From Marsupella aquatica (taxonomy: Eukaryota; Plantae; Marchantiophyta): a stretch of DNA of 64,000 nt. The position numbers and the translations under genes are program-made. Numbering within the stretch: position 1 is the stretch's first letter; each line of letters begins with the position of its first letter. The stretch spans positions 22,663,867-22,727,866 of the forward strand of contig OZ316894.1 in the NCBI GenBank assembly GCA_973895155.1. Direction: 5' to 3'. The notes beneath the pieces are model-generated. The model was not told the DNA's origin, did not search any database, and saw only the letters and a program-made list of their open reading frames with translations. Shown here piece after piece: positions 34,545-64,000 of the stretch.

Positions 34545-35828
34545 TCAAAGTTGGATTCCACACTTCAAATCAGCATATTCCTGACTATTTTCTTCACAAT
34601 CTGTTTCATGCCAAACAATCTTTGAGTGCTCGCTTCCGAACCCTTTGCCTTCAAGGAGACATGATCCGGAGGAATGCTTGCTTTTCCAATCCACTCCTAG
34701 ATAAAGCGCATCATTTCCTCTTACAGGAGCAAGTGGCGTGAATTTCAGATATTGTTGACGTAGCATGGAAGGAAACGAATTTGAATGCAGATCTTTCCAA
34801 GACTTGCTGTCAACGTCTTGGACATAGATGCCGAGCTGAGTAATCAAATGAAGTTTACCCTCAGCTACGAACACAGTTTCTGAATCATGCTTCTGAAATC
34901 TCTCCACTTCTCTCCAGTCATCCTTGACTGGATGATATGCCTCCAGAAACATTGCATCATGCACCGAATTAGTAGGTATACGGTATCCATCTTCATTCAG
35001 AAAAGGCTTCGCTAGGTCTTCACCGTAGTCTAGGTCAAAAACCTCTCCACCATACACCAAAAGTACCTCTCTTAGTGTAGCAACATGATGACCACATCGC
35101 AAAACTTTCACGGGCCTTGTTGGAGACCAAGTATTGGCACAGGCCCATTGTGACTTGCACCCCCAAATACATAAATCTTCCCACCTATGACACCACACCC
35201 AAACTTCAGGCGTCCCTCTTGCATGCTTGCACATTGCTGCCATTCACAGCTCCAGCTGCGGTCCTGGCTAGGACGCCCCAGCTTTTCTTCCGGCCCCACC
35301 AGGTCCAGCACGTATACTTCATTGTATACTTCCTTGAATTCATCGTCATCCTCATTTCCACACGACTCACCATATCCGGTTCCTCCTCCCAAAACGTATA
35401 TTTTGCCATCCAATGAAACACATTGGCATTCCCATGGGATTCCCCTGTTACACCCTGGAATTTGAGGCAATTCATAGCAATGTTCTTCTCTCGGGCAATA
35501 AAGGAAAATTCCCTCACAACTGAAATCTATTATTTTCGAAAGGATGACTATGGACAAGAAGCGTATCAGTCGACCAAGAGCTAACTCTGGCATCGTAGAC
35601 ACGACGACTTTGAATTGCTTTTCGCCAGGTAGGACTTACTGATGACAGGATGCAAAATGCTTTCCACGGCAGCTTTGTACATATGTGGTCCAAGGTTATA
35701 ATGTTGGGGATCCCCGGAAGAAGTTGGTCACCCTGCCCCTCCGACTTTGAATGCTTCTCACTGGTCCCTGTGCTTTCAGTAACTGTATTGCTTGCCCTAC
35801 AGTCTCCCATCCCGTCGTTGCTCATCAT
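34545..35828 (-). pseudogene. Intronless F-box/kelch-repeat protein gene with two frameshifts
   Basis: The F-box (LLPGIPNIITLDHICTKLPW...LSSVSPTWRKAI) is in ORF 35514-35828. Kelch repeats (CVSLDGKIYVLGG; WQQCASMQEGRLKFGCGVIGGKIYVFGG) are in ORF 35108-35602. Further kelch motifs (EAYHPVKDDWREV, VAEGKLHLI) are in ORF 34545-35243. The frames change without plausible introns. Confidence 0.75.
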
Positions 35829-41264: not shown

Positions 41265-42010
41265 GATGGACCCAAGGAACACACATGTTAATCACATGCA
41301 AATAAACCCCAACAGGGGAATGCACATTCATTGAACTGGGTGGTTCCTAAATTCAAGACTTTCCTAAACTTCTACCTTGCTGTGTTGTGACTCTTTAGGG
41401 TCCCATGGCCGGACTAGTTGTGTTTTGTTTTTCTTGCCCGGCCGCGGAAGCTTTGCACTATCTATTCCCTTTTTCTGGCGGCTTGCATCACTGTGTTAAA
41501 TCTACATCAAGTTGATGTGCGTCGTACACCAGAACATAAAACTTTACACTATTTATGATCGATAAACCAAATGATTTGAACCATATTTGTCTTGGTTTAT
41601 GTTCTAGTTATAACGCATAAATTTAACGCCAGCTCTTGCATCCCCTTGCTTGGTATTGATGCCTTCTCTAGCCCTCCCTCCTCTCTACTCTAAAGACAAA
41701 AGAAAAACAATGGCTTTCCCAAACTTTACCGTCCCTCTGTAAGGTTTGGTTTGTTAGATATCTCCCGTGTTCATTTCCTGCCCTCTGCTCTCTCATCAGA
41801 TTTGCCGTGTCCTTCTTAAAACCCTCGAACCCCCTCGCCACTGTAAACTTTCATGGACTCCATCAATGTCGGTCCTTCAGGTCGGCACTGCTGTGCTCGC
41901 TGCCGGAACACACCAAACCACGGTGATGAAATTCCATGATTAGGGCCGGAAGGCAGTGCCGGTGAGGCATCCGAAATCACCCACAATTCGCTCCAAATAG
42001 TCGAGCATCG

Positions 42011-45000
42011 ATGGACGAGGATGCTGCTGCAGGGGGAGGTTTGGGATTCAGTAAGCATAGAAGAGGTAAAGAGCAAGAGCCCACACTGCATCTGTATGTG
42101 GCCAATTGTGGGCCGGCGGTGGGGCTCTCATACAGTGTCATCAAGGAAGCTTTCGAATCCTTCGGGGAGGTGACAGGGATCCAAGCGGCGGGCGATTCCG
42201 GAACTCGGGTGGTCATCTCTTTCGGAAAGGTGGAGGATGCCGCTGCGGTAAAGGAGGCTTGGAGTGGCCACCCTTGTGATCGTCTTCAAGGCCGAGTGAT
42301 GTACATGCAGTACTCTGTGCCACGGTCCTTACCCATGGTAAAGTCATCAGGCTCTACAATATGTTGCTAAAAGTGGGCAATGTGGTCATTTACATGTGCT
42401 GCATGCTTGTACTACCTTAGGGATTTGTGGTTCAGGTAATCTCATTGAAGTTTTGATTTAGAATCAAGGATGATTGAATTGCTAAGAAAGTGTTCACGTG
42501 CGGTGATTGTGATACGTTTCAATGAGCAGGTTGAGGACCAGGAGCTTGCCATGACCACAGCCGCACAGCTACAAATTCCAGGGCTCGCAATCTACCCAGA
42601 CTTTGTGTCCATTGACGAGGAACAGGTGCGTAGTCCTCGTAATTTTAAATTTATCCATCTATTATACATGAATAACTTAAACCCAATTTTGGAACTGGAT
42701 AAGCACACATTGGCTAGTATATGGTCAGGGTGAAGATGCGCTTCTATGTTCTCCTGAGAGTACCTTACCCAACACGAAGTTTAACAAGGTGCTTACAATA
42801 TAGCTCGTAGTCTTTGAAATGAGAAAGAAGCTAATAAAGCATTTATTTCTATTTTTACGTGGATTGCTAGTGAGGGTACATCGAAATCCAGTTTCAAGTT
42901 CTACTCTAGTCGACATTACTAGATCGATAACTATATTTAGATGGGCGACTATATTTAGTCGCCCTGACCTAAATATTGAAGAGTAGCTCAATATATTGAA
43001 TTTGGGAACGCTCTGAGTGCTAGAGAAGAATTTATTAGAATTTTTGTGGTGTCCTCGATTACGTGAATACTGTGCGAAACCTCAATTCATAATTCTGGAG
43101 GCATAAATATCCGTTCTGCCTCAGAATGGCTTTGCTGTTCCAGCTGTTTGTCTGTCTACCTGGTGTAGAAACAAAGATGTGCCTTGTGTTTATGCCTATT
43201 TGAATCTGACTACTGTTCATGTAATCTCTTCCAAAACTTAAGAACAAGCCACAGGTCACGTCCTAAAACGACAATCAGGATGCTTCATTTCTAGGTTAGG
43301 TGGGAATGCTACAGCAAGGAGATTCAATCCGCTAATGTGAGTGATTCTCCTGTAGATCAATTGTCCTAATGTTTGTGAGATCACCAGGAGCTGCTGGCAG
43401 CTGTAGATCTGTTGCCTTGGCAGAATCTTGCCAAAAGAAGAGTGCAGCATTACGGGTACGAGTTTTTGTACAAGGTTCAAATTCCCTCTTTTCACAGGGT
43501 GTGCTGGTTTTCATCAAATTTCTGGGTTTTCTTGGCGCTGGTTTGCTCCATTTAGTCGCTACAGATAAATTACTTTCTATTTCCATATTGCTTGGATGGT
43601 CCAGTAGCGAATCTGGAAATTTTGGCAAGATGATTTCGTTTCAGAAATATTTAGGAGATGGTATACTCAGTTAAGGTTTGTCCGTGCTGCAGTCAAGGAA
43701 TGTGGACCTCTCACAGAAATTGGGAAACTTGCCAACCTTTGTGGGGAAAGTAGTAGAAAACATTTGCTCACTTACTGAGCTGACTCAGGCAAATGAGTTA
43801 TCTGTACCTCTGGATCAGCTTACGGTATGTGCACATCATCTTCATTAGCTTTCAAAGCTCTGGATGCCACTTGTTTATCTTTAACATGTGCGGAAAGTTC
43901 CTTAGATTAAGCCTAGTCCCCTTAAGAATATATCTGGTGTTAATAGTTTTGCGGATTTATAGTCGTGATTTTAGTGTTGATGAATTTCTATCATGCGCAA
44001 GGAAACTACTGTAGTGCCTCTTTTTGTCTGAGTTTCCTAGAACCATTGCCATCAAGTGTCAGCCAATAATAAACACGAACGGTAATCAATGTCTGTTTGC
44101 AAGAGAATTTTCTTATGCAAACGTCTTTGTTCATTTGTGAGTTCGGAGCATAAGCATTTAGGTAAGGGTGATGAGCATTTTCCGCCAGCTGGTGTTCCTC
44201 GTATCTCAGAAGACCGAGAATGTTTAGTTCACTCATTGCTCATGCTAGCTTGTATGTGGGGGTCTCAAGCAGGTGAATGAGTATCCGAGGGGTGTTGGTT
44301 TGTCACCTCACATAGATACCCACTCTGCGTTTGAAGGCTCCATTATATCATTGTCACTTGCTGGACCATGTGTAATGGAGTTCAGAAGGTATCCGAGTTC
44401 TGATAGTCCTGGAGAAAGTTCCGGGTGTGAAGCTGCTGAAAGCTCTTCTGTAAGCAGTGCATTTGAAAAGTCACCAAATGGAACTTCCAAGAAAGTGATG
44501 GAACGGAAAAAGATTTTCTTACCTCAAAGGTCTCTTCTGATATTGTCCGATGAAGCCCGATATTCGTGGCATCACTACATCCCCCATCACAAGGTACCAC
44601 TCTTTAGGAAGTTAGCATTAAGAGAACATACAAGAGTAATCTTCGGTCTTGCTGTCACAAATTTGTCGTCTGTGTTGGACTTGAGTTGTGCCGGTGATTC
44701 ATGATTCACTGCATCTAGTGTTATCTGCCCAGAATTTGTGATGTCAACTTGTTTGATTAGTTCTGTAGTCTGTATCCGGCGACTGTCTCTAATACTCCCT
44801 TCCCTGATTATGACGAATTCTGCCTTCAGGTTGATCAGCTCATTAATGAGACTGTACCCAGAGGCTCTAGGAGAGTTTCATTCACCTTCCGTAAGGTAAC
44901 ACTTAATTGTTGGAGCGATTCTTTAAATAGCTGGAGTATTGAATTTTGCTACGTCTGTTCTGTCATTACTAATTTACCTATAACCCAACTATATCACTGA

Positions 45001-46573
45001 AGTGTTGTTGATTTTTCCTCAGGTGCGTTCTGGACCTTGCCAGTGCAGCTTTGTGAAAGATTGTGACTCCCAGAATTCAGTCCTGTCAGGTTCTCCATTT
45101 CTATCAAATGCAGAGAAGACAGAATGCTCAGACTTAGACAGCTTGGGTGCAGATACCATAGCAGGTCAGGCTCAGGGGGACGTGGGAACAAATTCAGCTG
45201 AACAGGAAAGCCATTCGGATGAGTGGCACCATGAACTTGAACGAGCTGGAACCAAAGTCATAGAGCAACTTGTCTCCTGCCATTTAGACGATTCAAATCC
45301 TTCGGAAAGTATCTTTGAGGATGCTGCCAAACCAATTTCGCTTTCAGCTCCGGACATAGAGAAACTATATGTGCACAAGGTTTATGATGCTATTGCTCCA
45401 CATTTCAGTGCCACAAGGTTTGCGAAGTGGCCAAAGGTTGCATTATTTCTGGATTCCCTGGCTCCTGGCTCCTTAGTTGCTGATTCTGGATGTGGCAACG
45501 GAAAATATCTTGGCTACAATCCAAACTGCGTCTTCATTGGTTGTGACATAAGTCCGCCCCTTGTGGCCATTTGTTCGAGAAAGGGTCACGAGGCTCTTGT
45601 CGCGGATGCTTTAAATCTACCTTATAGGACTGGATTTTATGATGCAGCAATTTCTATTGCGGTGTTGCATCATCTCAGTAACGAACACCGGAGGGTAAGG
45701 GCCATAGAGGAGCTTCTGAGAGTGGTTTGTTCTGGAGGCACGGTTTTAATTACCGTTTGGGCAAGGGAACAGGAGGATAAAAATCTAGCCAAGAAATGGA
45801 CTCCTCTGTCTGACAAGTATGTGGAGGAATGGGTCAAAGATGAAGACCTTACAAATGGCAGGAGGCAGGACCTCTCATTCTCCCTGGACAGAATTCAGGA
45901 AGGGGACGGATGTATAGATTGCAGTATGGGCGATAGACAAGGATCGGGGAATGGATTTGACACTGAGAAGGGAGTCCAAGGAGTAGGCTTAAGGAGTCCA
46001 GCTGACACAAGGAAGCAGCAAGGCTACGAACAAGGTCGGCGTTTGAGTCCTCTTGCATTTTCATGGTCTAGGTTCGCTCTCATTAATTCTCGAGCCCACC
46101 TGGCACATCTCCACGGTATACTTAAACTTTCAGGAGACAGACAGTGAACGTTTCGAGGTATTCTCTGGTAAGGTTTCTGATTATGTCAATGGTGGATGGC
46201 AGGAGACGAAACAGGAAAAGCCATCGAAGAGCAACAAGAGTACTTTGTTCCTTGGCATTTGCCATATCATCGAGCTGAGGCAAATGGTGCATCAGCCGCC
46301 GTAGCCACTGGATTGGCACGAAAAGATGAGAAGAAGGGAACGTTGGTCTATAATCGTTATTACCACATGTTTGCAGAAGGGGAGCTTGAGAGGTATGTGT
46401 CTCTTGTGGGATTCAGTGTGGTTCAGTAAACTGCGGCAAAAAGAATTAGTAGTCGCTCCCGTTGTTAACTTGCGCTTATTTCTCGCAGACTAGCAACAGG
46501 AGTTTCGGGAGCCGAGATCATAGACCGATTCTATGATAAATCCAACTGGTGTATCGTTCTGCAAAAACTTTGA
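42011..46573 (+). CDS. ALKBH8: tRNA wobble-uridine modifying enzyme ALKBH8 (RRM + 2OG-Fe(II) AlkB + Zn finger + Trm9-type SAM methyltransferase), ~771 aa, 9 exons: 42011-42337, 42530-42625, 43388-43474, 43693-43824, 44273-44593, 44830-44895, 45023-46034, 46203-46392, 46489-46573
   Basis: RRM LYVANCGPAVG. AlkB motifs KRRVQHYGYEF, DQLTVNEYPRGVGLSPHIDTHSAF, RYSWHHYI and RRVSFTFR. Zn finger CQCSFVKDCDSQ. Trm9 motifs EKLYVHKVYDAIAPHFSATR, DSGCGNGKY, ISIAVLHHLS, YNRYYHMF and YDKSNWCIVLQK. Phases are consistent; the CDS totals 2316 nt. Confidence 0.9.
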
Positions 46574-49668: not shown

Positions 49669-50981
49669 CGTTATCAGCACCAAGCTCTTCACCAGCAAAT
49701 GTTTTTTTGAGGAGAAGGCCAGGATTGAATTGAATGTTGAAGAATTGAATCGAACGTGGATAGCTCTCACATAGAATCGGGCGAGGAATGATAAGGACCG
49801 AAGGGCTGAAATATCAAATCAAAATTACACGATAATTGTAGGCAGATTTCAAAGGAGAGAGAAGGAAACTCAAAGAAAAGGAAATCAAAAGGCCATACGA
49901 AGCAGCAAAGGATTCGGACTTATTCGAAGCAGAATGGCAGCAATAAGTCAATTCACTGATTGAAAGAAAGAGCGACTAGAAAGCAGAAGAAACTACATAA
50001 GAAGATCAAAGAGATTGACCCGAGGGTACAATTAAAAGAAGAAAACACCTCGAGGCGAAATGGAATCGCACAGATTGATCCTACAGTGAAGCCGAAGAGA
50101 GAAACAAAAAGAAAATTGAACATAGGAAGCGAAGGAAAATGAAAGCATACAAAAATGAGAACATCAGCAATTGATCAGGAGAAGAGGAAATTGAACCCCC
50201 TATTACACAGCGCGATCGACAGCAGAAATGAGTGGAATCGAAAAGAGGGAAAACGATCAAGTCAGATGGAAGAAGACATTGTGAAACGAGAAGAAAGAGC
50301 GAGTAGAAATCTAAATTTGAAGTCAAAAACTGCTGATGCTGTCACAACTTACTTTCGAAAATGATTGAGATGAGAATTCATGCCTGAGCATAGAACCGTT
50401 GACGAGAAGAGCAGGATGTGGATTGGGGGGGATCCAATTCAACACGAAGCGAAGGTGAAGTCGTGAGGCGCGCGCGGAGCACCTCCCCAAGAAGAAAAAC
50501 CGAAAAAAAAATGCAACAAAACAGCGAAAACATGGCAAGTCCAAAACCCTCTTTAAGTGCACAATCCGTCAAAGCAATTTCCGCATACAAAGAAAACTGT
50601 GCAATTAACCATCTAAGTGCAAATAACCGCAAAACCTCCATAACTGCACACCGTAACAAAGAAAACTTAACTTTACAAAACCGCATATGCACTTAACCAG
50701 GGCACGAGTAAATAATCACCCATAACTGCACAAATTGCAAAACTCCATTACTGCACAATTCAACAAAGGAAAGAGCAAATACAAAGGAAACTTTGCAGTT
50801 AACCAAATAATAAAGTAAACATAAATCCTAAGTGCAAACCCTAAAATTGAATTCCAGATTTGCACGCTCTCTGCACCCAGTCCCACTTTGCATGCCGCAT
50901 AAATGTGCTTTGTCAATTTTTACTATACTTACTAGAACATAAGCCCCAATCACCATTAAAAGGAACCTAGCCACCACCCCG

Positions 50982-53900
50982 ATGGCCAACCTGGAGAAAT
51001 TGACTTTCCCAGCTTTAGAAATCGATGATAACAATTACCTCGAGTGGTCCATGAACCTAAAGGAGAACCTGACCTCCTTAACCCTACTCCTCACTATAGG
51101 GATCGCTCAACCCATACTAGCTGGCGAACCTCAACCAGACCCGTTAACCAAAGCCAATGAATCCAAGGCCCTAGTATTTCTTAGACGCCATATCCATAGG
51201 TTCTTGCAAAGACAATACATGCATCTCTCAACCCCTCGCAAACTATGGACAGCGCTTCAGACCCAATTCGACCACCAAAAATTGGTCGAACTATCTAGAG
51301 CCAGGCAAGAATGGCTAAACCTACGGGTCCAGGATTTTACATCCATTTTAACCTAAAATAGTGAGCTATTCAAAATCACTTCAACCCTTACACTCTGTGG
51401 CGAGCCAGTCGCCGACAAGGACTTGCTAGAAAAGACCTTGTCCACGTTTCACTCTTCGAACGTGTTACTATCAACTCAGTACCGGAACATGAAGTTTGGG
51501 CAATACTCAGAGCTCATCGCCCACCTCCTAGTAACAGAAAGAAACCAAGAGCTTCTTTTAGTTAACTCTAGAAAATGCCCTACAGGTACACTAACCCCAG
51601 GACCACAGAGTGAAACCCATAATATAGAAAACGTTGAACCCTCCACATCAAGGCAGGGTATTAAGCGCATCAGGAATGACAACCAGAGAAACACCCCCTG
51701 TTAATGCCAATACCAATGCCCACAACTTAATTTCCAACTGCCCCTTAGAGGACGCGGCGAACGCGGAGGACGCGGCGGTGGAAGAACATATAACCACAAC
51801 CGAATAAATGATTGGTCACAATCCCGACAACAATGGGAACGCCCAAAATACCACAAATACGGCATGACAAACCACCTAGCAAGAAACTGTAGAATCCCGC
51901 AACACCTTTTGAGACCTATATCAACAGTCCCTCAAGGATGGACAAACCTCTAGGGCACCACCCCGTGAGACCCACGGGGCGTTTATGGAGTCCAGCGACC
52001 TATTTCAAGACTTTTCAGATACACCTGTGTAACCCGAGGCATATTTAGTGGCGGGCAGATCCACAACCCCAGACTTAAATAGCCCTAGCACATGCATTAT
52101 AGATAGTACGACTACGCATACTATCCTCCGGGATAGACTCCTTTTCTACAAGATAACACCCTCACGTAGATCACTGACCACTATCAATGGTCCTAGCCAA
52201 ATAGAAGAGGGCTTCGGCCCAGCTTCTATTAGACTCCCGTAGGGTACATAAATCTACATAGAATCTGCTAGCTTTGCCCCGAATGCAACCCGTAATCTCC
52301 TCAGTTTTAGAGATATACGAGCAAATGGACTCCACGTCCAGACAGGTGATACAAGAGACCAGGAAGTACTCCACTTGGTTGAAAATACCCCTACGGGGAA
52401 AATCATTAAAGAAACTCTTTTCTCGTACCCATGCGGGTTTTACATAACTCAAATTGAATGTTTGCATAACAATGCACAATCAAGTGAATTGCCCACGCTC
52501 TAGCATGCACGCCTCGGCCACCCCGGTCAATCCATGCTAAGCAAAATTATTAAGAATTCACGAGGCATTCCAACCAATATATGCCACATTCCAGCTAGCA
52601 CTCCATGCATTGCATGCTCACGCGACAAACTAATAACAAGGCCCACGACATCAAAATTGCCAACCAAGATACCAAAATTCTTGGACATCATACATGCGGA
52701 TGTTTGCGGGCCAATTAACCCACCGAGCGGACCATTCCGCTACTTTATGGTACTGATCGACACATCAACCAAATGGTCAAATGTGACCCTGCTTTCAACG
52801 AGGAACATGGTTATGCCTCGCATCTTGGCGCAAATCTTGCGCATGAAGGCACAATTTCCCGATCACCCCATTAAGACACTAAGGGTGGACAATGCAGGGG
52901 AATTCATATCTAAAACATTTGACGACTTCTGTACATCACTAGGTATCAATGTACAATATCCTATACCCCACGTGCATTTTCAAAATGGATTAGCTGAAGC
53001 TGTCATTAAACGCCTTCAGCTAATTGCAGGCCCACTACTAATGCAGTCGAAACTCCCCGTCTCAACATGGGGACATGCCATATTACAGGCTAACTCATTA
53101 ATTCAATACCACCCATCAGCTTTCAATACTTATAGTCCATACCAAATTGCTAACGGTATCAAACCCGATCTATCCCATCTTTGTTCATTTGGATGTCAAG
53201 TAATGGTCCCCATTACTCCACCCAAACGAACCAAGATGGGACCCCAACGACAGTTGGGGATATATATCGGATTCGACTCACCGTCCGTCATCAGATATAT
53301 GGAGCCTACAACGGGCGATGTTTTTAAAGCCAGATTTTTAGATTGTCATTTTGATGAACATGTTTATCCACCATCAATAACCCCTGAACACCCACAACCA
53401 CCTTTGGAGTGGGAGAGACATTTGCCATTTTGGCAAGACCTTAGAACCAATCAGGGGGAGAAAGAAGTTCAGCGAATTTTTCAACTCCACAAGATTGTGG
53501 AAGAACTTCCCGACGCTTTTGTCGATACATCACAAGTTACCCGCTCACATATTCCAGCTGCGAGAGCATCCGTTCGTATTGAATTATCAAGTGAACCAGC
53601 AAGTACACCCCAACCTTGTGCCAAACGTGGCAGACCCTTGGGATCAAAAGATAAACAACCCAGAAGGCGTGGTTCATCTATCCCTTCTTCACCTGATGTC
53701 GATCATACTGACTCTACAACTCATGAAGAGATCTCTATCCACTACGCACACACAGGTGCTATGTGGGATAGAAATACTACTTCAATAGACGATACTTTTG
53801 CATTAATGGTGGCAACCCATATCAATGATGATACACCTGAACCACTCTCCATCTTAGAATGCCAAAACAGATCAGATTGGCCTGAATGGCAAAAAGCTAT

Positions 53901-54366
53901 CAACGGAGAATTAGATTCCCTACTAAGCAGACACACTTTTGGCCCAGTTGAGCCAACATCGCAAGATGTACACCTCATTGGCTACAAGTGGACCTTCGTC
54001 CGCAAAAGAAATGATAAAGGCCAGGTTGTACGCTACAAAACACGTATGGTAGGGAAAGGATTTACCTAACAACAGGGAATTCATTACGATGAAACTTACT
54101 CACCGGTTATGGATAGCACAACATTCCGATACCTTATCGGATTTGCCATTTTCCATAAACTTCAGATGCAACAACTGGATGTTGCGACCGCATACCTATA
54201 TGGAACTTTAGACACTTGTCTATACATGCGATCACCTCCCGAGTTGGAGCAACATCGCCGAGCTTTAGCTCAAGGCGCTACATTGCATATTCCATATTTA
54301 CATAAGATTATAAAACCAATTACCTCAAATTACATCTCATGTGTCATCTACACATGTAACTCATAA
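50982..54366 (+). pseudogene. Copia gag-pol polyprotein, disrupted
   Basis: ORF fragments 50982-51356, 51423-51704, 52048-52242, 52534-54069 and 54109-54366 are separated by stops and frameshifts. Confidence 0.85.
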
Positions 54367-54370
54367 CAAT

Positions 54371-54699
54371 TGTCACACCATTCTGAGTAGTGTAGTAGTA
54401 TATCGTGCTATTAGAGTATGTAGTTTGGTATGAGTGCTATTGGAGCCGATAAGGTTCTGTCAGGTTTGTGTGAGAGGGTACTTCTCACTTGTGAGGCATT
54501 GAAAGGTCATCTTTCAATGTTGAGCCTTGGAGAGAGAGGAGCTTGAGTGTGGCTATGGTGGCTGTGAGCTCCGCTTGTGTAACGTGGATTCCTTGAGTAG
54601 TGCAAGGTGCGTTGGCTTGACATACGTGTGTGATCGGATCGGTGCGGGATCGATGGGGTATTGTTGACCGAGATCGTTGTGCCGATTGTATGGAGATTA
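54371..54699 (+). repeat. Terminal repeat B, copy 1 (329 bp); copy 2 at 63498-63826
   Basis: Same length and near-identical; I found one mismatch (CTTGTGTAAC vs CTTGTATAAC). Confidence 0.95.
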
Positions 54700-54710
54700 C
54701 ATTGAAAGAT
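54700..54710 (+). promoter_or_regulatory. Putative self-priming primer-binding site CATTGAAAGAT
   Basis: Lies immediately after repeat B and is the exact reverse complement of ATCTTTCAATG at 54509-54519 inside B. There is no TGG tRNA-type PBS. Confidence 0.65.
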
Positions 54711-54970
54711 CACATTCGAAATCTGTTGTACGGACTGTGCGGACAGAAGTTCGATTGATTGAGTTGTCGACGGTTCGTGGTAGCTCGGATCGTGTGTTGT
54801 TATCGAACAGATCGTTGGTATCTTGACCTGTATCGTTGTTGTCCGATCGGCCTGCTTCCCGATCGATGTACAGATCTGTGATTGGTGATAGGTTTTGAGT
54901 TGGAGGTCGATTGATGATTCGTGGAGGAAAGCGAATGTTGAGTAGATGTTGGACAGTGGAAGTCGATCCG

Positions 54971-55060
54971 TGAGGCTTCAGATCCGATTGCCGGCTACTG
55001 TGAGGCTTCAGATCTGATTATCGGCTACTATGGGGCTTCAGATCTGATTGCCGGCTATTG
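54971..55060. repeat. 30-bp tandem repeat x3 in the gypsy leader
   Basis: TGAGGCTTCAGATCCGATTGCCGGCTACTG-like units at 54971, 55001 and 55031. Confidence 0.85.
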
Positions 55061-55287
55061 TTGGACGATGTTGGCAAGGCGCAGGTGAAGCGACGGCTCT
55101 TTTCCTGAAGGAACGGAGCTGCCAATGCCCCGTGCGACGGTATCATCATTTCAGTGAAAGAAACGAGGGTCAAAGGTGTTGAATCAAGCTGCTGCCAGTT
55201 CTGTGGAAGGGCTGCGTTTTTCATGAAGGAAATCGACAGTTTTCGGGAGCTTTTCGTGAAGGAAGTAGTCATTTTTGGGGTCAGGTG

Positions 55288-55512
55288 CACGAGGTCACCC
55301 ATCCCGAAAGTGCTCGCGCGAGGCGACGCGTGAGGTCACCCATCCCGAAAGTGCTCCCAACCGCGAGCGCGAAGTCACCCATCGCGAGCGCAGGCAGGCG
55401 CGAGGTCGAGGTCACCCATCCCGGGGCTATTCCGGGCCGTGAGCGCGAGGGGAGGCACAAGGTCGAGCGCGAGGAGGTCACCCATCCCGGGGCTATTCCC
55501 AGCCGCGAGCGC
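55288..55512. repeat. CpG-rich repeat cluster (GAGGTCACCCATCCCG x5) in the gypsy leader
   Basis: The motif recurs at about 55291, 55332, 55371, 55408 and 55474. Confidence 0.8.
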
Positions 55513-58500
55513 TTAACTGGAAAGTTCTCATCCCACCTTGTGTACACACAAGCTTTGACAACTTGTTGTTTAGATTCAAGTGCCAGGGGGCTTTATACAC
55601 TTCCCAATTTATTTAGAGGCCTATTCTAGGCCAAATCAGATGCTGTTTTAGGGTTTTTGATACTTCTGAGTCCATCTAGACTCACAGATTGAACCAATTT
55701 TGCCTTGGTTCTCATCTACAACATTGGAGTGCCATTGTGAAGCCTATTATGAAGGCTCTTCCTTGAACCTTATGCACATTGTCATATTGATTTGCATTTG
55801 CTTTTGTGTGGAGAGTTGAATGGTATCCATTCTTGTTTCTGGATCCTCTTCACACATGTTTCCTGTTTATGCGCCATGTTAGTTTCATGTGGGCGCTTGA
55901 TTCCATAGGAGTGATCCGGGTTTGCAACTAGACATTCTAGTGTGCTGTGTATTTCTCTCTTGGTGATGTTGGAGTGATGCCCAACACACCATGGTGAGTG
56001 CTTGTGGTGCTGACAGGGATAGATTGCCCTTAGGGTTAGCACATAGATTAGGTTAGGGTTGGTCACCATGGATTCTTCTGGTGCTGCTGGATTACCCGAT
56101 GGACGACGGACCGGTTTCACTCGGAGTGGGGCACAGTTTCGGCCAGCGGCATTGGTAGCAGTTAGCAGTGCAGCTTCAGACAGTGATTCTGATGAGGACT
56201 CAATGACCAGTTCTCCTCATCATCAGGTGGTTGCACCTTTGTTGTGGGATATGGACGAGATGTACGGGGCTACAAAGGGCCCACAATGATACTCTGGTGC
56301 AGTTGGCACAATTGATCTGGATGACTTCATCCAGGAGTTTGATACGTGGTGCGATATGCAGACATTGCGTAACGTCACGTTGTTTACCCCTTTCATGGCA
56401 TGGAAGGGATTATTCCAGCATTTGGAGGGGCCACCCATGGATGACTACCATGAGTTTCGGAAGGCTCATTTGGTTGAGATTGAGGCATGGAGGCAACATT
56501 GGTCGCCTAATTATGTGTCCATCACCTATGGCACTAGTGCGGCTGCCCAACCCATTGCCACAGCTGCTGCTTCTTCTAGCAGCACTAGCCAAAGTGGCAC
56601 ACCATCCACCAGCAGCACTCCAGCAGCATCCACCACTACTCTTACCGGTGTGATTGTGACAGGAACTGGAGTTGCGCCAGCATTTAATCCTGTGGTGGAA
56701 TTCTTTGAGGTACTGAAGCAGAACTATCAGGGTGTGAGAACTGATAAGTTGAAGGGTCTTCAAGAGTTCCAACGCAAGACTGGAGAGAGCCTACGTGAGG
56801 CATACACACGTATGCGCAGATTGATCACTGTCACCAAGGGAGTGACAGAGGCTCAGGCAGTCCAGTTTTGGTATGCAATTCTGGACAGAGAATTGCGACG
56901 CAGAGTGAGAGATGTCACTCTGCTTAGGGATGCAGATCCCACATTAGCAATTGTTTTCACCCTTTCTGAGCGCATTGAGCTCAATATGGTGAATGAGAAG
57001 GTGGTGACTTCCGGATTTGCCAAGGAAGCACCAAAGGCTGCATCTACATCCACACCACAGCCTACTGCACGGAAGAGCCAGAGGGAGAAGCCTACTGCAC
57101 GAGAGTCTACCAGCCAGAGACCTGTGCCCTCATATGCTGGACAGCAGTCAGGATGTTGGACCTGTGGTGGGGATCATGCACAGAGATATTGTCCAGATCA
57201 TAGAGGATCAGGGGGAGTATCAGCGCCTGATCAGCGACAGTGTGATCATTGTGGAGCTCCTGGACACACCAAGGATAGGTGTTTTTCACTCCACCCTGAG
57301 TTACGGAGAGGAGGATCCCGTACACATGATCAGGGAAGAGGAGGTAGAGGTGGTGGACGTGGTCGTGGCATGCCACATGCAGGGAGACAGGGAGGTGACG
57401 CTGCCCCTGCTATAACCATAGATCCAAAAGATGCTAAGATTGCTCAATTGGAGCAACAACTAGCTGCCATGGCTAGTTCCCAGGTGAGACCTAATTCTGG
57501 TGATGGGGCATCTACATCCTATGGACCTTCCACATCCCATGGTCCTTCCACATCTTATGGAGCTGATGGAGACCTTGCCACCATGGGATTCATGTGTGGC
57601 ACTGCACATATTGATGCATCAGCAACTTTGACACGTGGGGCAGCCAAAGCTCTTGAGCCCCGAGGAGCAGTAGTGGAGTTAGATCCACAAAGGGGGGATG
57701 CACGTCGGCAGACAAAGCTTCCTCAGTCTTTTACATTGTCAAAGACAGTTCAGACTGCCTCTATGAACCCGGTTCGGACAAACCCTGATGTGGGTAAGTT
57801 GGCAGAATCAGGTAGTGATGCAGCAGGGATGACATGTACCTTGCTGGGGGCGGCTACTGCCATAGTACGCACCCCATTATTTTCAGCGATAGACATGCTG
57901 AACTTGGGAGTTGGTCCTGCAGAAGTGTTCAGATTGGCAGCTACACTCTGTGAGGACACTCCAGTGGTTGCTTCCCATGCAGAAGCAACTTGTAGTGTTG
58001 ATGCAGTGAAGACCATGCCACCTACTGTTACTAGTGAGACATGGCATGCAGCAGCAGCGAGGTTGGTGGATTTACCAGCACGCCCTGCATTTGAGAGGAC
58101 TAGGTTTAAACCTAGTGTTGTGTCATTGGATAATCGGAGTGGTATCTTCCGATTAGTTGGGCCTTCTGGAGCAGTATACTAGCCAGAGAGAGTGTTACTG
58201 GATACTGGTGCTCAGCCCTTGATGTTGGGGAAGTCTGCCATACGTGGATTGGGATTGCATCCAGAGGATTTGGAGGATTGTCCCTTTCCCATTCAGACTT
58301 CATTGGGGGGACCTACACCTACACAGCATATCACCAGGAGACCACTTGATTTGAGGATTCAGGAAGGTCATACCACAGATAGCTCACAGATACAGGCGCG
58401 AGCTATTCTGACTAAGGCAGAGTCATATGATGTGTTGGTGAGATGTACAGTGCTCTACCCCATGGGATTTATTCTTGATTTTTGGGAGGAATCAGTGTCA

Positions 58501-58908
58501 TATAGACCTGATTGGCAGTCAGGAGATGCTCGATTGAGAAAATTGCCAGTGAGATTTAGTGGACCTGCGGGAGGCCCTAAATCCACACCATTGTCTTTGG
58601 CAGCATTCAGTGGTGTAATTGCTAGACTTGATGATTTGATTGAGGGTAATGCGCATGCAGCCGATGTTCCACCATTGGAGGAGTCTCATGAGGAGCACAT
58701 CATGCGAGGATTACCTGTTGGCAGTGTTGTGCCACCAGTGTGGGGCATTGCACAGGCCTTGCCACAGGCAGCAGCACGATTGGTACATGATGCATGGCGT
58801 CATGCTTTTACACCACAGTCAGGAGCAGAGCAGTCTCTTGCAGATGGACCTGTGACTCTTTCACCATTGGATACCACTCCTATTGCTTGGCAGTATCCAC
58901 CGGAGGGT

Positions 58909-59866
58909 ATTTGTTTGTTGGATCTTTTTGGTGGGATTAGCACTGGATTGGCTGCTGTTCTTCAGGCAGGAAATTATGTGCGTCGTTATTTGTATGTGGA
59001 GACAGATGAGACAACACGGAGGGTCTCATTGCAACATGTGGCTATGTTGGTGGATAGATATCCACAGTTGCTGCCAGTGGATGCTGTTCATGGTTATCAG
59101 CATGCACTACCTGCTGATATTTCATTGCTGGGGGCGGATCATCTGCATCGTGTTGGCCCCATTGATTTGGTGATTGCTGGTTGGCCATGTCAGGGCCAAT
59201 CTAGAGCTGGCGTTGGGCATGGACTTCATGATCCACGCTCTGCATTGTTTTGGGAGATGTTACGGGTTTAGGGTTTAGGGTTTAGGGTTTAGGGTCCAGC
59301 TACATCAGACATAGTCTCCAGCATACATTTTGGAGAATGTGCCATTGTTAGGTGATGATCGTAGTCGGATTGTTGCTAGTGTTCACCAAGTGAGGTCTTG
59401 GATTGGACCTGCTGTGTTATTGGATGCTGCACGTGTGGGTTCTCGTGCACATCGTCCACGCTTGTGGTGGACTAATTTGATCCCATGTGAGGTGCTGAAG
59501 CGCGCATTTGACAGCATTCCACGCTCACCAGCCTTAGTGGTGGATGATATTTTGGATCCAGGGCGTCGTGCACTGGGTGTGACCCAACCTGATAGACCTC
59601 CATTGGCAATGGTCAATGCAGTTGGGTGCCCACGTTGTGCATTACCCACTCTTGTAAGCCACTCTGCTTCATATGCATTCAGAGCAGGTGGCCCTGGACT
59701 TGTATGGGACACAGCTCTCCAGCAGTTAGTGGAGCCTACTGCTGATGAGAGAGAGCGTGCTATGGGATTTTTGACTGGCACCACTGCAGTTGCCTCTATG
59801 TCAGAGGGTTTGCGGCGCCAGGTTCTTGGTCAAGCAATGGATTTGAATTGTTTGACTTGGATTATC
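58909..59866 (+). other. DNA (cytosine-5)-methyltransferase domain embedded in the gypsy polyprotein
   Basis: C5-MTase motifs in canonical order: I LDLFGGISTG, II YVETD, III ADIS, IV AGWPCQG (catalytic PC), VI ENV, VIII AHRPRLWW, IX ERERAMGF, X RQVLGQAM. Confidence 0.9.
59264..59295 (+). repeat. Interstitial telomeric repeat (GGGTTTA)4.5
   Basis: Four perfect Arabidopsis-type units plus GGGT inside the MTase coding region. Confidence 0.95.
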
Positions 59867-62800
59867 AGCTTGGGAGTAGCTGGACAGTTGCGGATGCGCT
59901 CTGCCGGAATTACTGATTGTCCCTTGGTGAGCTTGCGGTCCACTGAGACAGTATTGACCACAGCTGGGGGCGAGCAGACAATCCATGGACCTATGACAGG
60001 ATTGGCGGCTGGACAGATTGTTGAGCAGGAAGGGACTGCTCAATCTACTGCTAAATAGCAATCATCGGCTATCTCTTCTACCCTACAAAGAGATATTAGG
60101 GATTTGGTGGAGAGTTGGGAACCACAGCTTGGCCCTAAGTTAACAGGGGAGGAGAGACGTCGCATGCATCGATTCGTGAAGAGTTATTGGAATTGTTTTG
60201 CATTCAGCATGAAGGATTTGGGGACATTGAAGGGCCCTGGTATTCAGATTGAATTGGCTAGTGATGCGCCAATCTTTCGTAGGCCATACCGTTATAGTGA
60301 CATGGAGAGAGCTCTGATTCAAAGCAGAACTCAAGATTTGTTGGAGGCTGGATTGGTGGAGATTTCATATGGGGAGTATGCATCTGCCACAGTGATGCCA
60401 GCCAAGAAGGATGTGCATGGCAATTATACAGATAGGCGCATGTGTGGTGATTACAGACCTATTAATCGCCAGACAAAATCTGATCGATATGCCATGCCCA
60501 CACCTGAGGAGATCTTTGATGTTGTGGGGCATGCAAAGGTTTTCAGTTCATTGGATCTGAGGGCAGGATACCATCAGCTTCCAATTAGGCATGCTGACAG
60601 GTCCAAGACAGCATTCTGGGGGATTGATTCTTATGGCAAAGATCGTTTGTATCAATGGTTATTCTTACCATTTGGGTTGAAGAATGCACCAGCTGAGTTC
60701 CAGAGAGTCATGGATCGAATCCTTGCAGGTTTGGATTTTGTCAGATGTTATATTGATGATATTTTGGTCTATTCTTCTATTGTGGAAGAACATCAGCAGC
60801 ACTTGCAGACTGTGTTGGAGAGATTGAGAGCACATGGGTTGAAGCTCCATCCTAGCAAGTGTAAGTTCTTCCAAGACCAGATTGAGTATTTGGGCCACAC
60901 CATATACCCAGGGGGATTGGGTGTACAGCAGACTAAAGTGGAGGCCATTACACAGATTCCTTGTCCTACTGATGTGAGTAGAGTTCGTGCATTCTTGGGA
61001 TTGGCGAGCTACTACAGGAGGTATGTTAAAGGATTTAGCCAACTTGCTAAACCTTTGACCATACTCACTAAGTTGGATCAGGAATGGATTTGGGGTAATG
61101 ACCAGGAGCATGCCTTTAAGGAGTTGAAGCAAAGGTTGGCATCATCCCCTATTTTGAGAAGACCCATTTCAGGCAGACCATTTCAGCTACACACTGATTG
61201 GAGTGGAGTAGGACTTGGAGCAGTGCTGACTCAGAAGGATGATGAGGGGAATGAGTTTGTTGTGGCTTATGCCAGTAGATCAAACAATTCAGCAGAGGCT
61301 AAGTATAGCTCTTATGAGGGAGAGTGTTTGGCAGTAGTGTGGGCTGTTGCACACTTTCGTTGCTACTTGTTTGGTAACCCCTTCACCTTGATCACTGATC
61401 ATCAGCCTCTTAAGTGGTTAATGGAGTCTGACAAGCTTACAGGGAAGCTTGCACGATGGGCATTGTTGTTACAGGAGTATGATTTCCAGGTGGTGCATAG
61501 GCCTGGAAAAGTGAACTTGGATGCAGATGGATTAAGCCGCAATCCATGTACCAGTCAGCAGGATGAGATTGGAGCCAGATGGCATGATGAGTCAGATAGG
61601 GAGATGGTGCCAAGATGGCATGCATCTGCCTTTCTTTGTTGGGTGTCAGCATACAGTGGATCTGTGGACTCTACCTCATTGGATGGAGTGGATGATGAGT
61701 CTTCAGATGTGGATGTTGGTGAAGTAACTTCTGGACAACAAGATATTCACAATGATGTGAGAGTGTTGGAATATTTGCGCAATAGTTCTATTGTTGGCAG
61801 TGTTGATGCCAAGGAACGTGACAGGGTTCTACAGAGAGCCAAGAGGTTTTGATGGGAGGGAAACCATCTTTTGAGAGTACTGCATGATGGTAGGATGTTG
61901 GTGGTACCAAAACCATCACAACGAGTACATTTGGTGCGACATGCGCACGAGGAGTTGGGTCACTTTGGTGTGAAGCGCACTTACAACTTGCTGCAGACAC
62001 AGTATTGGTGGCGTGGTATGCACACTCATGTCCAGCAGTTGATAGCTAAGTGTGTGGTATGTGACAGAGTGAGAGAATTATTTAATGCTCCCACTCCCCA
62101 GTTGCACCCGTTACCGATCATGGGTTTGGGATATCGTTGGAGTTTGGATTTTGCTGGTCCATTACCTCTTACCCAACGTCATAATCGGTATGTTTTGGTC
62201 ATGGTGGAGCACTTCTCTAAGTGGATTGAGCTAGTGGCGTTGCCAGATAAAGCCAGTGGAGGAGTTGCTGCTACATTTTTGGATCGTGTACTCAGTCATT
62301 TTGGAGCACCAGCTGAGGTGTTGACTGATCAAGGAACTGAGTTCCGTGGAGAGTTTGAGAGTTTGTGTGAACAAGCTCTGATTGATCATCGCACTACCTC
62401 TCGTGATCATCCTGAGGCAGATGGATTAGCTAAGAGAGTTATGCAAACTGTGAAGAGAGGATTGCGTAAGTATGGCTTGCAGGTTGGTCATCTAGGAGAT
62501 TGGGATCTCCAGCTACCTTGGTTAGCTATGGGCTACTGTTTCAGTCGGCAAGCATCACTTGCATCCTTCTCACCCTACTTTTTGCTCTATGGTAGAGAGC
62601 CAGATTTGCCAGCAGCTATTCGTCGTCATGCTGCACCAGTTGTGAACTTGGATGATCCTGATGTTTGGGTCAAGGTGTGTTCAGAGAGAGCACGGGTATT
62701 TCAGAGAGTGATGCCCATGGCTTTTGACAACCTTGCCATTGCCCAACATCGTGATACTTTGAGGTATGCCACTATTCGTGGAGGAGGTTACCGTGCAAGC

Positions 62801-63043
62801 ATTCGACGATTTCATCCTGGTGATTATGTTTATTTGCAGCAGACAGCACCCACGACACTTGATGTGACCGCAGGCCGAACAATCTTACGTGTGCATGAAG
62901 TGTTGCCTTCTGGTGTCCTGATGTTGGAGGGACGCGATGGTATGGTTTGGAAGGATCATGTGCGTAACTGTGCACCATGTCACCTTCCCAACATTGATGG
63001 TACAGTAGATCCAAGCTTGGCACATGTTTGTGCTGGCTTGAAA

Positions 63044-63181
63044 TGTATGTTGTATGGATCTGCTCAGGGAGCAGCTACTATGTTGATTTGTGATAAGTGT
63101 TCTAGAGGATGGCACATGTCATGTTTGACACCACCATTGCAGGTGATTCCTAGTGGATCATGGTTGTGTCCTCAGTGTCGG
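63044..63181 (+). other. PHD finger at the integrase C-terminus
   Basis: C-ML-(Y)...LICDKCSRGWHMSCLTPPLQVIPSGSWLCPQC is a C4HC3 pattern whose second Cys has become Tyr (TAT). Confidence 0.85.
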
Positions 63182-63348
63182 TGAAGCCGACTAGTTATCA
63201 TTTGTGTTCTCTTGGCAGATATGGATTGCAGGTAGGTGATCGATGGGGCTCACTTGCACCCGGCCTCCTGATCTTCACACCTAAAAAGGTGTATATCAAC
63301 CTTGTAGAACTCATGGCTAGCTAGAGTTAGGGGACCTTACTCCCAGCT

Positions 63349-63358
63349 AGGGGGGCGA
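63349..63358 (+). promoter_or_regulatory. Polypurine tract AGGGGGGCGA
   Basis: G-run immediately upstream of repeat A copy 1. Confidence 0.7.
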
Positions 63359-63495
63359 TTGTGGGTTTTGGACATGTGTGAACATGAGTTCCACTTGTAT
63401 TCCATTCTCTTGTATTTGTGATGTGGCAGTGTGACTATGTCTGGATGTATGTGACAAGCGATGTATGTTGTGTAGCGATATGTATGCGCACGACA
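63359..63495 (+). repeat. Terminal repeat A, copy 1 (137 bp); copy 2 at 63827-63963
   Basis: Same length; I found two mismatches. Copy 1 joins B copy 2 through GC, forming the palindrome GACAGCTGTC. Confidence 0.95.
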
Positions 63496-64000
63496 GCTGT
63501 CACACCATTCTGAGTAGTGTAGTAGTATATCGTGCTATTAGAGTATGTAGTTTGGTATGAGTGCTATTGGAGCCGATAAGGTTCTGTCAGGTTTGTGTGA
63601 GAGGGTACTTCTCACTTGTGAGGCATTGAAAGGTCATCTTTCAATGTTGAGCCTTGGAGAGAGAGGAGCTTGAGTGTGGCTATGGTGGCTGTGAGCTCCG
63701 CTTGTATAACGTGGATTCCTTGAGTAGTGCAAGGTGCGTTGGCTTGACATACGTGTGTGATCGGATCGGTGCGGGATCGATGGGGTATTGTTGACCGAGA
63801 TCGTTGTGCCGATTGTATGGAGATTATTGTGGGTTTTGGACATGTGTGGACATGAGTTCCACTTGTATTCCATTCTCTTGTATTTGTGATGTGGCAGTGT
63901 GACTATGTCTGGATGTATGTGACAAGCGATGTATGTTGTGTAGCGATATGTATGCACACGACACAATGACACCCCTGTGTCAGCCGTACGGAATACTCTC

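What the first reader, a model, noticed from the sequence alone, without database searches (positions are those of the whole stretch)
58909..59866. Retrotransposon-encoded DNA cytosine methyltransferase in a land-plant genome
Seen: a full set of C5-MTase motifs (FGG, E, PCQ, ENV, RxR, motifs IX and X) lies between protease and RT within the polyprotein, so it is an integral domain rather than a passenger fragment. Established: DNMT-carrying retrotransposons were reported in Symbiodinium and the charophyte Klebsormidium (de Mendoza et al. 2018); I am not aware of them being characterised in embryophytes. Inference: a particle-packaged DNMT3-like enzyme may methylate new cDNA or circles, or the insertion site. 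This copy is inactivated, but its near-identical repeats imply recent family activity.
Basis: partly seen in the sequence, partly recalled or inferred. Interest (0 to 1): 0.9.

Follow-up and report, generated by a model that had tools for sequence, protein, structure and literature searches.

The report
Methyltransferase-carrying retrotransposon in land plants
A decayed jumping gene in a seed-free land plant carries its own DNMT3-type DNA methyltransferase, a design described from an alga and found here also in liverworts and peat mosses; the enzyme ends the Gag-protease reading frame ahead of a likely leaky stop and likely methylates the element's own new DNA copies.

Summary
Confirmed and extended. 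58909-59866 is a DNMT3-type C5 methyltransferase (Pfam PF00145; DNMT3A is the best sequence and fold match of intact homologs). It sits between protease and RT of a 9.6-kb Ty3/Gypsy element (54371-63963; TG..CA ends, 4-bp target duplication, PHD finger on the integrase). The ends are split direct repeats (A..BAB), as reported for Klebsormidium KnitGypsy-Dnmt3. The domain is integral: same order in related loci, dN/dS about 0.15, RT and DNMT trees share their main split. Named relatives occur in Marchantia, Calypogeia and Sphagnum, and a second architecture in Scenedesmus. Correction: the domain is not in an open frame with RT. It ends a Gag-protease-DNMT frame at a conserved in-frame stop in a tobamovirus-type readthrough context (UAG-CAA-UCA here). 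Also found: a self-priming signature and a GACA-GC-TGTC junction that suggests integration from a joined-ends intermediate. This copy is dead (four premature stops, a telomere-repeat insertion with frameshift). Activity and target are inferred; the Klebsormidium enzyme was inactive in yeast. I saw no land-plant report in ten literature searches. New variant of a known kind, testable in Marchantia.

The parts
54367..54370 (+). left copy of 4-bp target-site duplication (CAAT)
   Evidence: sequence; empty-site joints in 4 of 4 runs laid
54371..54699 (+). split direct repeat A1; the element starts TGTC
   Evidence: 328/329 identical to A2
54509..54519 (+). predicted self-primer arm (likely 5' end of the transcript)
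   Evidence: perfect 11-nt complement of 54700-54710; 0 of 1220 control positions; complementarity kept with a different sequence in related loci
54700..54710 (+). predicted primer-binding site directly after A1
56068..58179 (+). gag with two zinc-knuckle-like motifs; premature stop at 56287
   Evidence: no Pfam hit in the window, weak Retrotrans_gag hit in Marchantia homolog P0278
58183..58560 (+). aspartic protease (DTG), after a premature stop at 58180
   Evidence: PF13650 E 0.006, below cut-off; 57% identical to Marchantia P0006
58909..59866 (+). DNMT3-type C5 cytosine methyltransferase domain, broken in this copy
59267..59294 (+). (TTTAGGG)4 telomere-repeat tract inside the DNMT; shifts the frame
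   Evidence: spacing 49 vs 33 nt
60056..60064 (+). conserved in-frame stop with CARYYA context (TAG CAA TCA); end of Gag-PR-DNMT frame, likely readthrough site
   Evidence: motif from PMC3542737
60131..61480 (+). reverse transcriptase and RNase H, same frame as the DNMT C-half
   Evidence: PF00078 E 5e-34, PF17917 E 5e-38
61913..62710 (+). DDE integrase (H2C2 + rve), after a premature stop at 61850; the third catalytic position is also altered in this copy
63041..63184 (+). C-terminal PHD finger, one zinc ligand substituted in this copy
   Evidence: PF00628 E 1e-8; best PDB matches CHD4, DPF3, KMT2D, ATXR5, PHF21A
63349..63358 (+). polypurine tract just before B1
   Evidence: sequence; near-identical in related loci
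63358..63495 (+). repeat B1
   Evidence: 136/138 identical to B2
63492..63501 (.). palindromic B1/A2 junction GACA-GC-TGTC: the element's two termini joined by 2 nt
   Evidence: same pattern in 7 loci
63498..63826 (+). repeat A2
63826..63963 (+). repeat B2; the element ends GACA
   Evidence: diverse flanks follow the B end in run contigs
63964..63967 (+). right copy of target-site duplication (CAAT)
50943..54366 (+). Ty1/Copia element into which the Gypsy element inserted (continues after 63967)
   Evidence: rve, RVT_2, SH3 hits; empty-site joints

Best explanation
This is a decayed copy of a split-direct-repeat Ty3/Gypsy retrotransposon that carries a DNMT3-type cytosine methyltransferase at the end of its Gag-protease reading frame, ahead of a conserved stop that is likely read through into RT-RNase H-integrase-PHD, and the enzyme likely methylates CG in the element's own new cDNA. 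Shown: domain order, motifs, fold of an intact homolog, purifying selection, repeat layout, 4-bp target duplication, conserved stop. Inferred: (1) one RNA starting near 54509 would prime its own reverse transcription; (2) most ribosomes would stop at 60056, so the DNMT would be made at Gag levels, in excess over RT and integrase, and be packaged with Gag; (3) the cDNA ends would be joined, and integrase would cut the GACA-GC-TGTC junction to insert A..BAB; (4) the DNMT would pre-mark the cDNA so that it resembles host DNA, or is silenced in CG at once, while the PHD finger would steer integration by reading histone H3 tails.
For: PF00145 hit. Intact natural homologs: best solved relative DNMT3A E 4e-11, ahead of DNMT3B, DRM (1e-6) and HaeIII (5e-5) (P0001); model pLDDT 90.9 (P0002), top fold match DNMT3A E 3.5e-18. 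Catalytic Cys kept in 40 of 42 aligned homologs, motif VI Glu in 41 of 42, motif VIII Arg in 40 and 38 of 42. dN/dS window vs loci 0.16 (44 loci) and 0.14 (53) for the DNMT halves, 0.07 RT, 0.14 RNase H. RT downstream in 62 of 69 loci with room, protease upstream in 42 of 57. RT and DNMT trees split the same 17 vs 40 of 57 rows, support 99 each. Stop at the equivalent place in 45 of 50 loci, CARYY next in 42, against 9 of 717 decay stops; Marchantia, Calypogeia and Sphagnum proteins end at about that place. CpG o/e across codon borders 0.16 in this element vs 0.84 in the adjacent Copia and 0.59 in host exons, with CHG not depleted (1.11). Related SymbioDIRS-Dnmt3 enzymes methylate CG de novo in yeast (PMC5890265).
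Against: No activity, expression or packaging data for this family. KnitGypsy-Dnmt3 gave no methylation in yeast, called inconclusive by the authors. 42 of the 45 loci with the stop are one Sphagnum-like subfamily, so there are about three independent DNA lineages; that subfamily has CAA-CCC then ATG, and only 1 of 50 loci plus the window has the full CARYYA. L063 and L066 and several distant proteins lack the stop. CpG depletion is not specific: 5 unrelated Gypsy pieces in the loci gave 0.19. dS to the window is near saturation; among loci dN/dS is 0.38-0.48 for DNMT (RT 0.40). The local self-priming duplex is not in the minimum-energy fold of 54509-54730. A simple two-LTR circle would also give ABA..B insertions, and none was seen.
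Confidence: 0.55

Rival explanations
1. The enzyme acts in the nucleus on chromatin, at the new insertion, at the element's own promoter or at target DNA, brought there with integrase and the PHD finger, rather than on free cDNA in the particle.
For: The PHD resembles CHD4, DPF3, PHF21A and UHRF1 fingers, recalled as readers of H3 tails unmethylated at K4, like the ADD domain that guides DNMT3A (recalled). In the second architecture the DNMT lies between RNase H and integrase.
Against: In this lineage the DNMT is on the Gag side of the stop and the PHD on the other side, so most DNMT molecules would not be tied to integrase.
Confidence: 0.18
2. The domain is kept for a non-catalytic or non-DNA role, such as binding or modifying the genomic RNA or cDNA, or acting as a decoy for host silencing proteins.
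For: No activity for KnitGypsy-Dnmt3 in yeast; RNA targets were proposed for SymbioLINE-Dnmt (PMC5890265).
Against: All catalytic and SAM-binding motifs are near-invariant in 42 homologs and the fold matches DNA-acting DNMT3A/B. Human DNMT3B also failed in that yeast assay.
Confidence: 0.13
3. Rival on expression only: RT-RNase H-integrase is made by re-initiation, an internal promoter or splicing, not by readthrough.
For: The Sphagnum-like subfamily has an ATG 7 nt after the stop and a CAA-CCC context. Some Marchantia and Sphagnum gene models join DNMT to RT across a predicted intron (P0003, P0004, P0012, P0060).
Against: In the window the first Met comes 36 codons after the stop, downstream of the conserved WEPxxGPKL block. 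The stop is in frame with RT and followed by CAA-YY in three lineages.
Confidence: 0.25
4. A host DNMT3 fragment was captured recently and drifts neutrally.
For: This copy is broken; one contig in one run skips the whole DNMT (joint 58684 to 60007).
Against: 71-76% identity to Marchantia and Calypogeia domains against 57-67% for protease and 35-42% for the linker; dN/dS about 0.15; 866 clusters at 50% identity match the C-half; RT and DNMT trees agree.
Confidence: 0.02

Closest known systems
KnitGypsy-Dnmt3 of Klebsormidium nitens (de Mendoza et al. 2018, PMC5890265)
   Same: Gypsy domain set with DDE integrase, unrearranged DNMT3-like domain, DIRS-like repeat layout (Fig. 4c legend), purifying selection. 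Klebsormidium protein KFL_000540020 is a homolog (39%).
   Different: Host is an embryophyte. The window's DNMT groups with Marchantia, Calypogeia and Sphagnum (22 rows, SH-aLRT 100), apart from Klebsormidium. The paper places the DNMT in the Pol ORF with RT; here a conserved stop separates it from RT. PHD, readthrough context, self-priming and the palindromic junction did not appear in the text I read ('PHD' 0 hits); the figure itself was not seen.
SymbioDIRS-Dnmt3 (dinoflagellate DIRS elements)
   Same: DNMT3-type domain inside a retroelement with split repeats; shown to methylate CG de novo in yeast.
   Different: Uses a tyrosine recombinase; an independent capture. This element has a DDE integrase, TG..CA ends and a 4-bp target duplication.
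EpiLTRs and DAM-LTRs (bioRxiv 10.64898/2026.05.21.726589)
   Same: Ty3/Gypsy elements carrying DNA methyltransferases plus a chromatin reader.
   Different: Those carry an adenine methylase, a chromodomain and a DNMT4-sister domain and are reported absent from streptophytes. Here: DNMT3-type and PHD.
Host plant DNMT3 (PpDNMT3a/b; Yaari et al. 2019, PMC6453930)
   Same: Unrearranged DNMT3-type catalytic domain; de novo CG and CHH methylation shown for the host enzymes.
   Different: Host genes, not retroelement domains; not among the named hits. Their branching relative to the retro-domain was not tested.
Tf1/Sushi-Tcn1 self-priming Gypsy elements (Neumann et al. 2019, PMC6317226)
   Same: Primer site complementary to a stretch of the element's own 5' repeat instead of a tRNA.
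   Different: Those have ordinary LTRs and chromodomains; 'methyltransferase', 'PHD' and 'Marchantia' have 0 hits in that survey's main text.

Membership tests
Gypsy-DNMT3 (KnitGypsy-Dnmt3 kind) | Gypsy domain order protease-RT-RNase H-DDE integrase | tested here: met
Gypsy-DNMT3 (KnitGypsy-Dnmt3 kind) | Intronless, unrearranged DNMT3-like domain with catalytic motifs | tested here: met
   motifs I-X in linear order; DNMT3A best by sequence and fold for intact homologs
Gypsy-DNMT3 (KnitGypsy-Dnmt3 kind) | DIRS-like split direct repeats A..BAB | tested here: met
   window, L056, L059, L053
Gypsy-DNMT3 (KnitGypsy-Dnmt3 kind) | DNMT domain under purifying selection | tested here: met
   dN/dS 0.14-0.16 window vs loci, near dS saturation; among loci equal to RT
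Gypsy-DNMT3 (KnitGypsy-Dnmt3 kind) | DNMT in the same open frame as RT and RNase H, as the paper states | tested here: not met
   same frame but a conserved stop intervenes in 45 of 50 loci and the window. Klebsormidium-cluster proteins P0091 and P0271 also end 12 residues after the DNMT, so the split may hold there too
Gypsy-DNMT3 (KnitGypsy-Dnmt3 kind) | Descent from the same capture as the Klebsormidium domain | tested here: inconclusive
   homologous and same position, but the trees hold no host DNMT3 outgroup
DNMT3 family | Groups with animal and plant DNMT3 in a phylogeny | not tested
   no host DNMT3, DRM or bacterial sequences were in my trees; assignment rests
DNMT3 family | De novo cytosine methylation activity | not testable with these tools
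   needs an assay
DRM | Circularly permuted motifs | tested here: not met
   motifs run I to X
DIRS/Ngaro tyrosine-recombinase elements | Tyrosine recombinase instead of DDE integrase | tested here: not met
   rve and H2C2 hits, no recombinase hit; 4-bp duplications at three sites
Troyka | CG..CG ends, 3-bp target duplication, animals only (PMC12440569) | tested here: not met
   TG..CA ends and 4 bp
Chromovirus | Chromodomain after integrase | tested here: not met
   PHD instead; no chromodomain hit. No reference RT set was available to place the lineage

The most novel reading that the evidence does not exclude
An old lineage of Gypsy elements, spread from chlorophytes to liverworts and mosses, makes a DNMT3 at capsid-protein levels by placing it before a leaky stop, primes its own reverse transcription, joins its cDNA ends and inserts by cutting an internal CA-NN-TG junction with a DDE integrase, and methylates that joined intermediate. 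It would be a self-methylating, circle-integrating retrotransposon with many gene models in the Marchantia reference genome, and a so far uncounted source of de novo methylation in land plants.
Probability: 0.3. Interest if true: 0.85.

Novelty: new variant of a known kind. Interest (0 to 1): 0.66.

Why it matters
The 2018 paper left open what retrotransposon DNMTs do, and its streptophyte example lay in an alga whose enzyme was inactive in yeast. The same kind of element is shown here in land plants. One Marchantia polymorpha cluster alone has 18 members, several with long open Gag-protease-DNMT frames annotated as hypothetical genes. Marchantia has methylomes and methyltransferase mutants, so the question becomes directly testable. 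These copies may also matter when counting DNMTs or reading residual methylation in bryophyte mutants. The stop context, self-priming signature and joined-ends junction give concrete predictions for how a DDE-integrase element replicates with DIRS-like repeats. A homolog in Scenedesmus suggests the capture is older, or has moved further, than the Klebsormidium lineage.

Tried and rejected
No whole genome is held, so intact copies in the host could not be counted. Viral contigs: 6 pattern matches, 0 relatives. No RNA holder listed among 20 runs. Whether the host's other copies keep the stop at 60056 and lack the telomere tract was not read from sequencing runs and stays open; it is inferred from P0001 and P0233 (86-89% identical, open across the tract, ending at the same residue). 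Run depth over the element is high but is no copy number. No tRNA genes in the window. Gag and protease dN/dS could not be computed (no ungapped alignments), integrase dS was saturated, only L001-L064 were used, and the script failed after printing these values. The careful DNMT tree did not finish; the quick tree was used. Host lineage is unresolved: the DUF936 gene falls in an open fork with mosses, Selaginella and seed plants, with no named liverwort or hornwort in the set. Troyka, DRM, DIRS and chromovirus were rejected (see membership). CpG depletion is kept as weak evidence only. Earlier scan findings: none by sequence or words. Literature searches that gave no land-plant report.

Full report
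Observation. The window holds, on the + strand, gag (56068), protease (58183), the methyltransferase (58909-59866), RT and RNase H (60131-61480), integrase and a PHD finger ending at 63184. The methyltransferase motifs I, II, IV, VI, VIII, IX and X are present in linear order. The N-half passes the PF00145 cut-off; the C-half alone has no Pfam hit. The copy is dead: premature stops at 56287, 58180, 59312 and 61850, and four telomere repeats at 59267-59294. The two halves are 49 nt apart here and 33 nt apart in 57 of 57 measurable loci.

What the enzyme is. A search with the C-half among proteins of 334-2000 residues found 112 relatives among 5704 candidates; a search of 50% cluster representatives found 866 at E up to 0.001 and 465 up to 1e-10. 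For the closest intact homolog (P0001, 86-89% identical) the best solved relatives are DNMT3A (E 4e-11), then DNMT3C and DNMT3B, a DRM-type plant enzyme (1e-6) and HaeIII (5e-5). A model of another intact homolog, P0002, has pLDDT 90.9, and its listed fold matches are all DNMT3A, B or C. In 42 aligned homologs the catalytic Cys is kept in 40 and the motif VI Glu in 41. No tree with host DNMT3 or DRM was built, so the family call rests on these matches.

Integral, not a passenger. A metagenome scan gave 144 relatives, of which the best 80 were kept as loci. RT follows the DNMT in 62 of 69 loci with room, protease precedes it in 42 of 57, a PHD follows in 27 of 34, and 17 of 80 show all of these. 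The loci were found with the DNMT, so they cannot count DNMT-less relatives. dN/dS between window and loci is 0.16 (44 loci) and 0.14 (53) for the two halves, 0.07 for RT (26), 0.14 for RNase H (32) and 0.28 for PHD (17), with dS near saturation; among loci, where decay inflates it, DNMT 0.38-0.48 and RT 0.40. Identity to Marchantia Mp4g09160 is 76 and 71% in the DNMT, 57% in protease and 41% in the linker. RT and DNMT trees of the same 57 rows both split the 17 with DNMT before RT from the 40 with DNMT after RNase H.

Hosts. Named DNMT relatives are Marchantia polymorpha, Calypogeia fissa, three Sphagnum species, Klebsormidium nitens and Closterium, and Scenedesmus for the second architecture. 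The integrase-PHD part adds Riccia and Haematococcus; no vascular plant is named among the best 120 of 281 hits. The window's DNMT lies in a 22-row clade with the liverwort and moss proteins (SH-aLRT 100, quick tree of 88 rows), apart from Klebsormidium. One Marchantia cluster has 18 members. The window's own host is a land plant whose DUF936 gene has Sphagnum (43%) and Adiantum (42%) as best named hits and does not group with seed plants or mosses in a tree. I read it as seed-free, lineage unresolved.

The stop after the DNMT. The frame ends at TAG 60056, followed by CAA TCA, and RT continues in the same frame. P0001 ends at the same residue. Of 50 loci in which both the DNMT end and the RT start could be placed, 45 have TAG or TAA at the equivalent position and 42 continue CARYY; 9 of 717 other in-frame stops do. 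The five misses are L044, L052, L063, L066 and L080. UAG-CAR-YYA is the tobamovirus readthrough consensus and also works with UAA (PMC3542737, passage). Limits: 42 of the 45 are one subfamily (91% identical to a Sphagnum jensenii protein that ends at this stop) with CAA-CCC-ATG; the full hexamer occurs in the window and in L069 only. Many long homologs are Gag-protease-DNMT proteins without RT, including those of Marchantia, Calypogeia and the Klebsormidium cluster; others run on into RT with no stop. Readthrough is my inference (about 70%). It would give the DNMT at Gag levels.

Ends. Repeats run A1 (54371-54699), B1 (63358-63495), A2 (63498-63826), B2 (63826-63963). The element starts TGTC, ends GACA and is flanked by CAAT twice; contigs of 4 of 4 runs laid join the two flanks without it. 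Two more sites show 4-bp duplications (L056/L059, L053). B1 and A2 meet in the palindrome GACA-GC-TGTC, with GACA-NN-TGTC or a decayed form in 7 loci. Fifteen 5' copies of A at 13 distinct flanks are never preceded by B. The 11 bases after A1 perfectly complement 54509-54519 (0 of 1220 controls), and the Sphagnum-like subfamily keeps 8-12 nt of complementarity at the homologous place with a different sequence in 5 of 14 loci tested, at another place in 3 and none in 6. The duplex is not in the minimum-energy fold. A polypurine tract precedes B1. Standard reverse transcription from these two primers would give BA..BA. The A2/B2 junction equals the A end at the primer site joined to the B start at the polypurine tract. 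I infer that the ends are joined and that integrase cuts the internal palindrome, which would leave CA ends with 2-nt overhangs; cleavage of joined ends by IS3-family and retroviral enzymes is recalled, not checked. This model does not explain why ABA..B forms are absent; a linear cDNA whose ends are templated on the B1/A2 junction is the alternative.

Function. CG methylation of the element's own cDNA is my best reading. Related dinoflagellate enzymes methylate CG de novo, and this element is strongly CpG-poor (o/e 0.16) but not CHG-poor (1.11), unlike the Copia it sits in (0.84, 0.71). Against it, the Klebsormidium enzyme was inactive in yeast, and five unrelated Gypsy pieces in the loci are as CpG-poor (0.19). 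The PHD matches CHD4, DPF3, PHF21A and UHRF1 fingers; that these read H3 tails without K4 trimethylation is recalled.

Literature seen. PMC5890265: abstract, passages, parts 2-4 of 7 of the body, and term searches in three supplements; the main supplementary PDF was too large and Fig. 4c was seen only as a legend. It reports Gypsy elements with Dnmt3 and DIRS-like repeats in K. nitens; 'embryophyt' and 'PHD' have 0 hits in the main text. PMC12344493: passages and one supplement. Both say 'streptophytes' for these elements, citing or matching the 2018 work; their trees, which I could not see, may hold land-plant copies. PMC12440569: parts 1-3 of 5. PMC3542737, PMC6317226, 10.1101/363937, PMC6453930, PMC11982613: passages. 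Ten searches showed no description in land plants and no readthrough or self-priming report for this family. Subscription journals and Repbase were not searchable.

Verdict. The feature is real and belongs to the Gypsy-DNMT3 kind, so it is not categorically new. The land-plant and chlorophyte range, the conserved stop after the DNMT, and the priming and junction signals are additions I did not find in print. New variant of a known kind; interest 0.66.

Noticed in passing
window 59267-59294: Four perfect plant telomere repeats sit inside the DNMT with a net gain of 16 bases over homologs, as would follow telomerase-aided repair of a break (inference).
   Followed up: partly
window 41966-46429 (+): An ALKBH8-like RRM and 2OG-Fe(II) oxygenase region is followed directly by a Trm9-type methyltransferase region on the same strand. 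It may be one fused gene as in animals, whereas Arabidopsis has two genes (recalled). Not tested.
   Followed up: no
P0363/P0446 (Scenedesmus sp. PABB004) and unnamed proteins: A second architecture, RT-RNase H-DNMT-integrase-PHD in one open frame: 23 of the 80 long proteins listed show it whole. It forms its own clade in both RT and DNMT trees.
   Followed up: partly
P0107 (Closterium sp. NIES-54): Gene model with Copia domains followed by a protease and part of this DNMT; probably a nested insertion, possibly a Copia-DNMT.
   Followed up: no
P0024, P0526: Members of this plant or algal retroelement family are labelled as bacterial proteins (Obscuribacterales MAG, uncultured Leptolyngbya); likely contamination.
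   Followed up: no
L057, L060, L061, L078, L079: Head-to-head inverted arrangement with two partial DNMT copies facing each other.
   Followed up: no
L053 about 10830-10860: Aberrant A2/B2 junction with a duplicated piece of A and extra bases from the polypurine-tract side, resembling an imperfect end-joining product.
   Followed up: partly
window 54371-63963: Only 3 differences in 467 repeat bases, yet at least four premature stops, a frameshift and altered catalytic positions. The copy may have been mobilised in trans when already defective, or its repeats homogenised.
   Followed up: no
window 50943-54366 and 63968-64000: Target is a Ty1/Copia element, Bianca-like by recalled motifs, present at high depth in the runs; CpG o/e 0.84 against 0.16 for the Gypsy element.
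   Followed up: partly
window 20138-20756; 22907-22976 with 23517-23586; 55291-55514: A 104-bp tandem array, a 70-bp inverted pair 540 bp apart (MITE-like), and GC-rich 41-bp repeats in the element's leader.
   Followed up: no
window 9583-14827, 27078-30860 (+), 34545-35635 (-): Host genes: two long neighbouring ORFs of one unidentified gene, a DUF936 gene and a kelch-repeat gene.
   Followed up: partly
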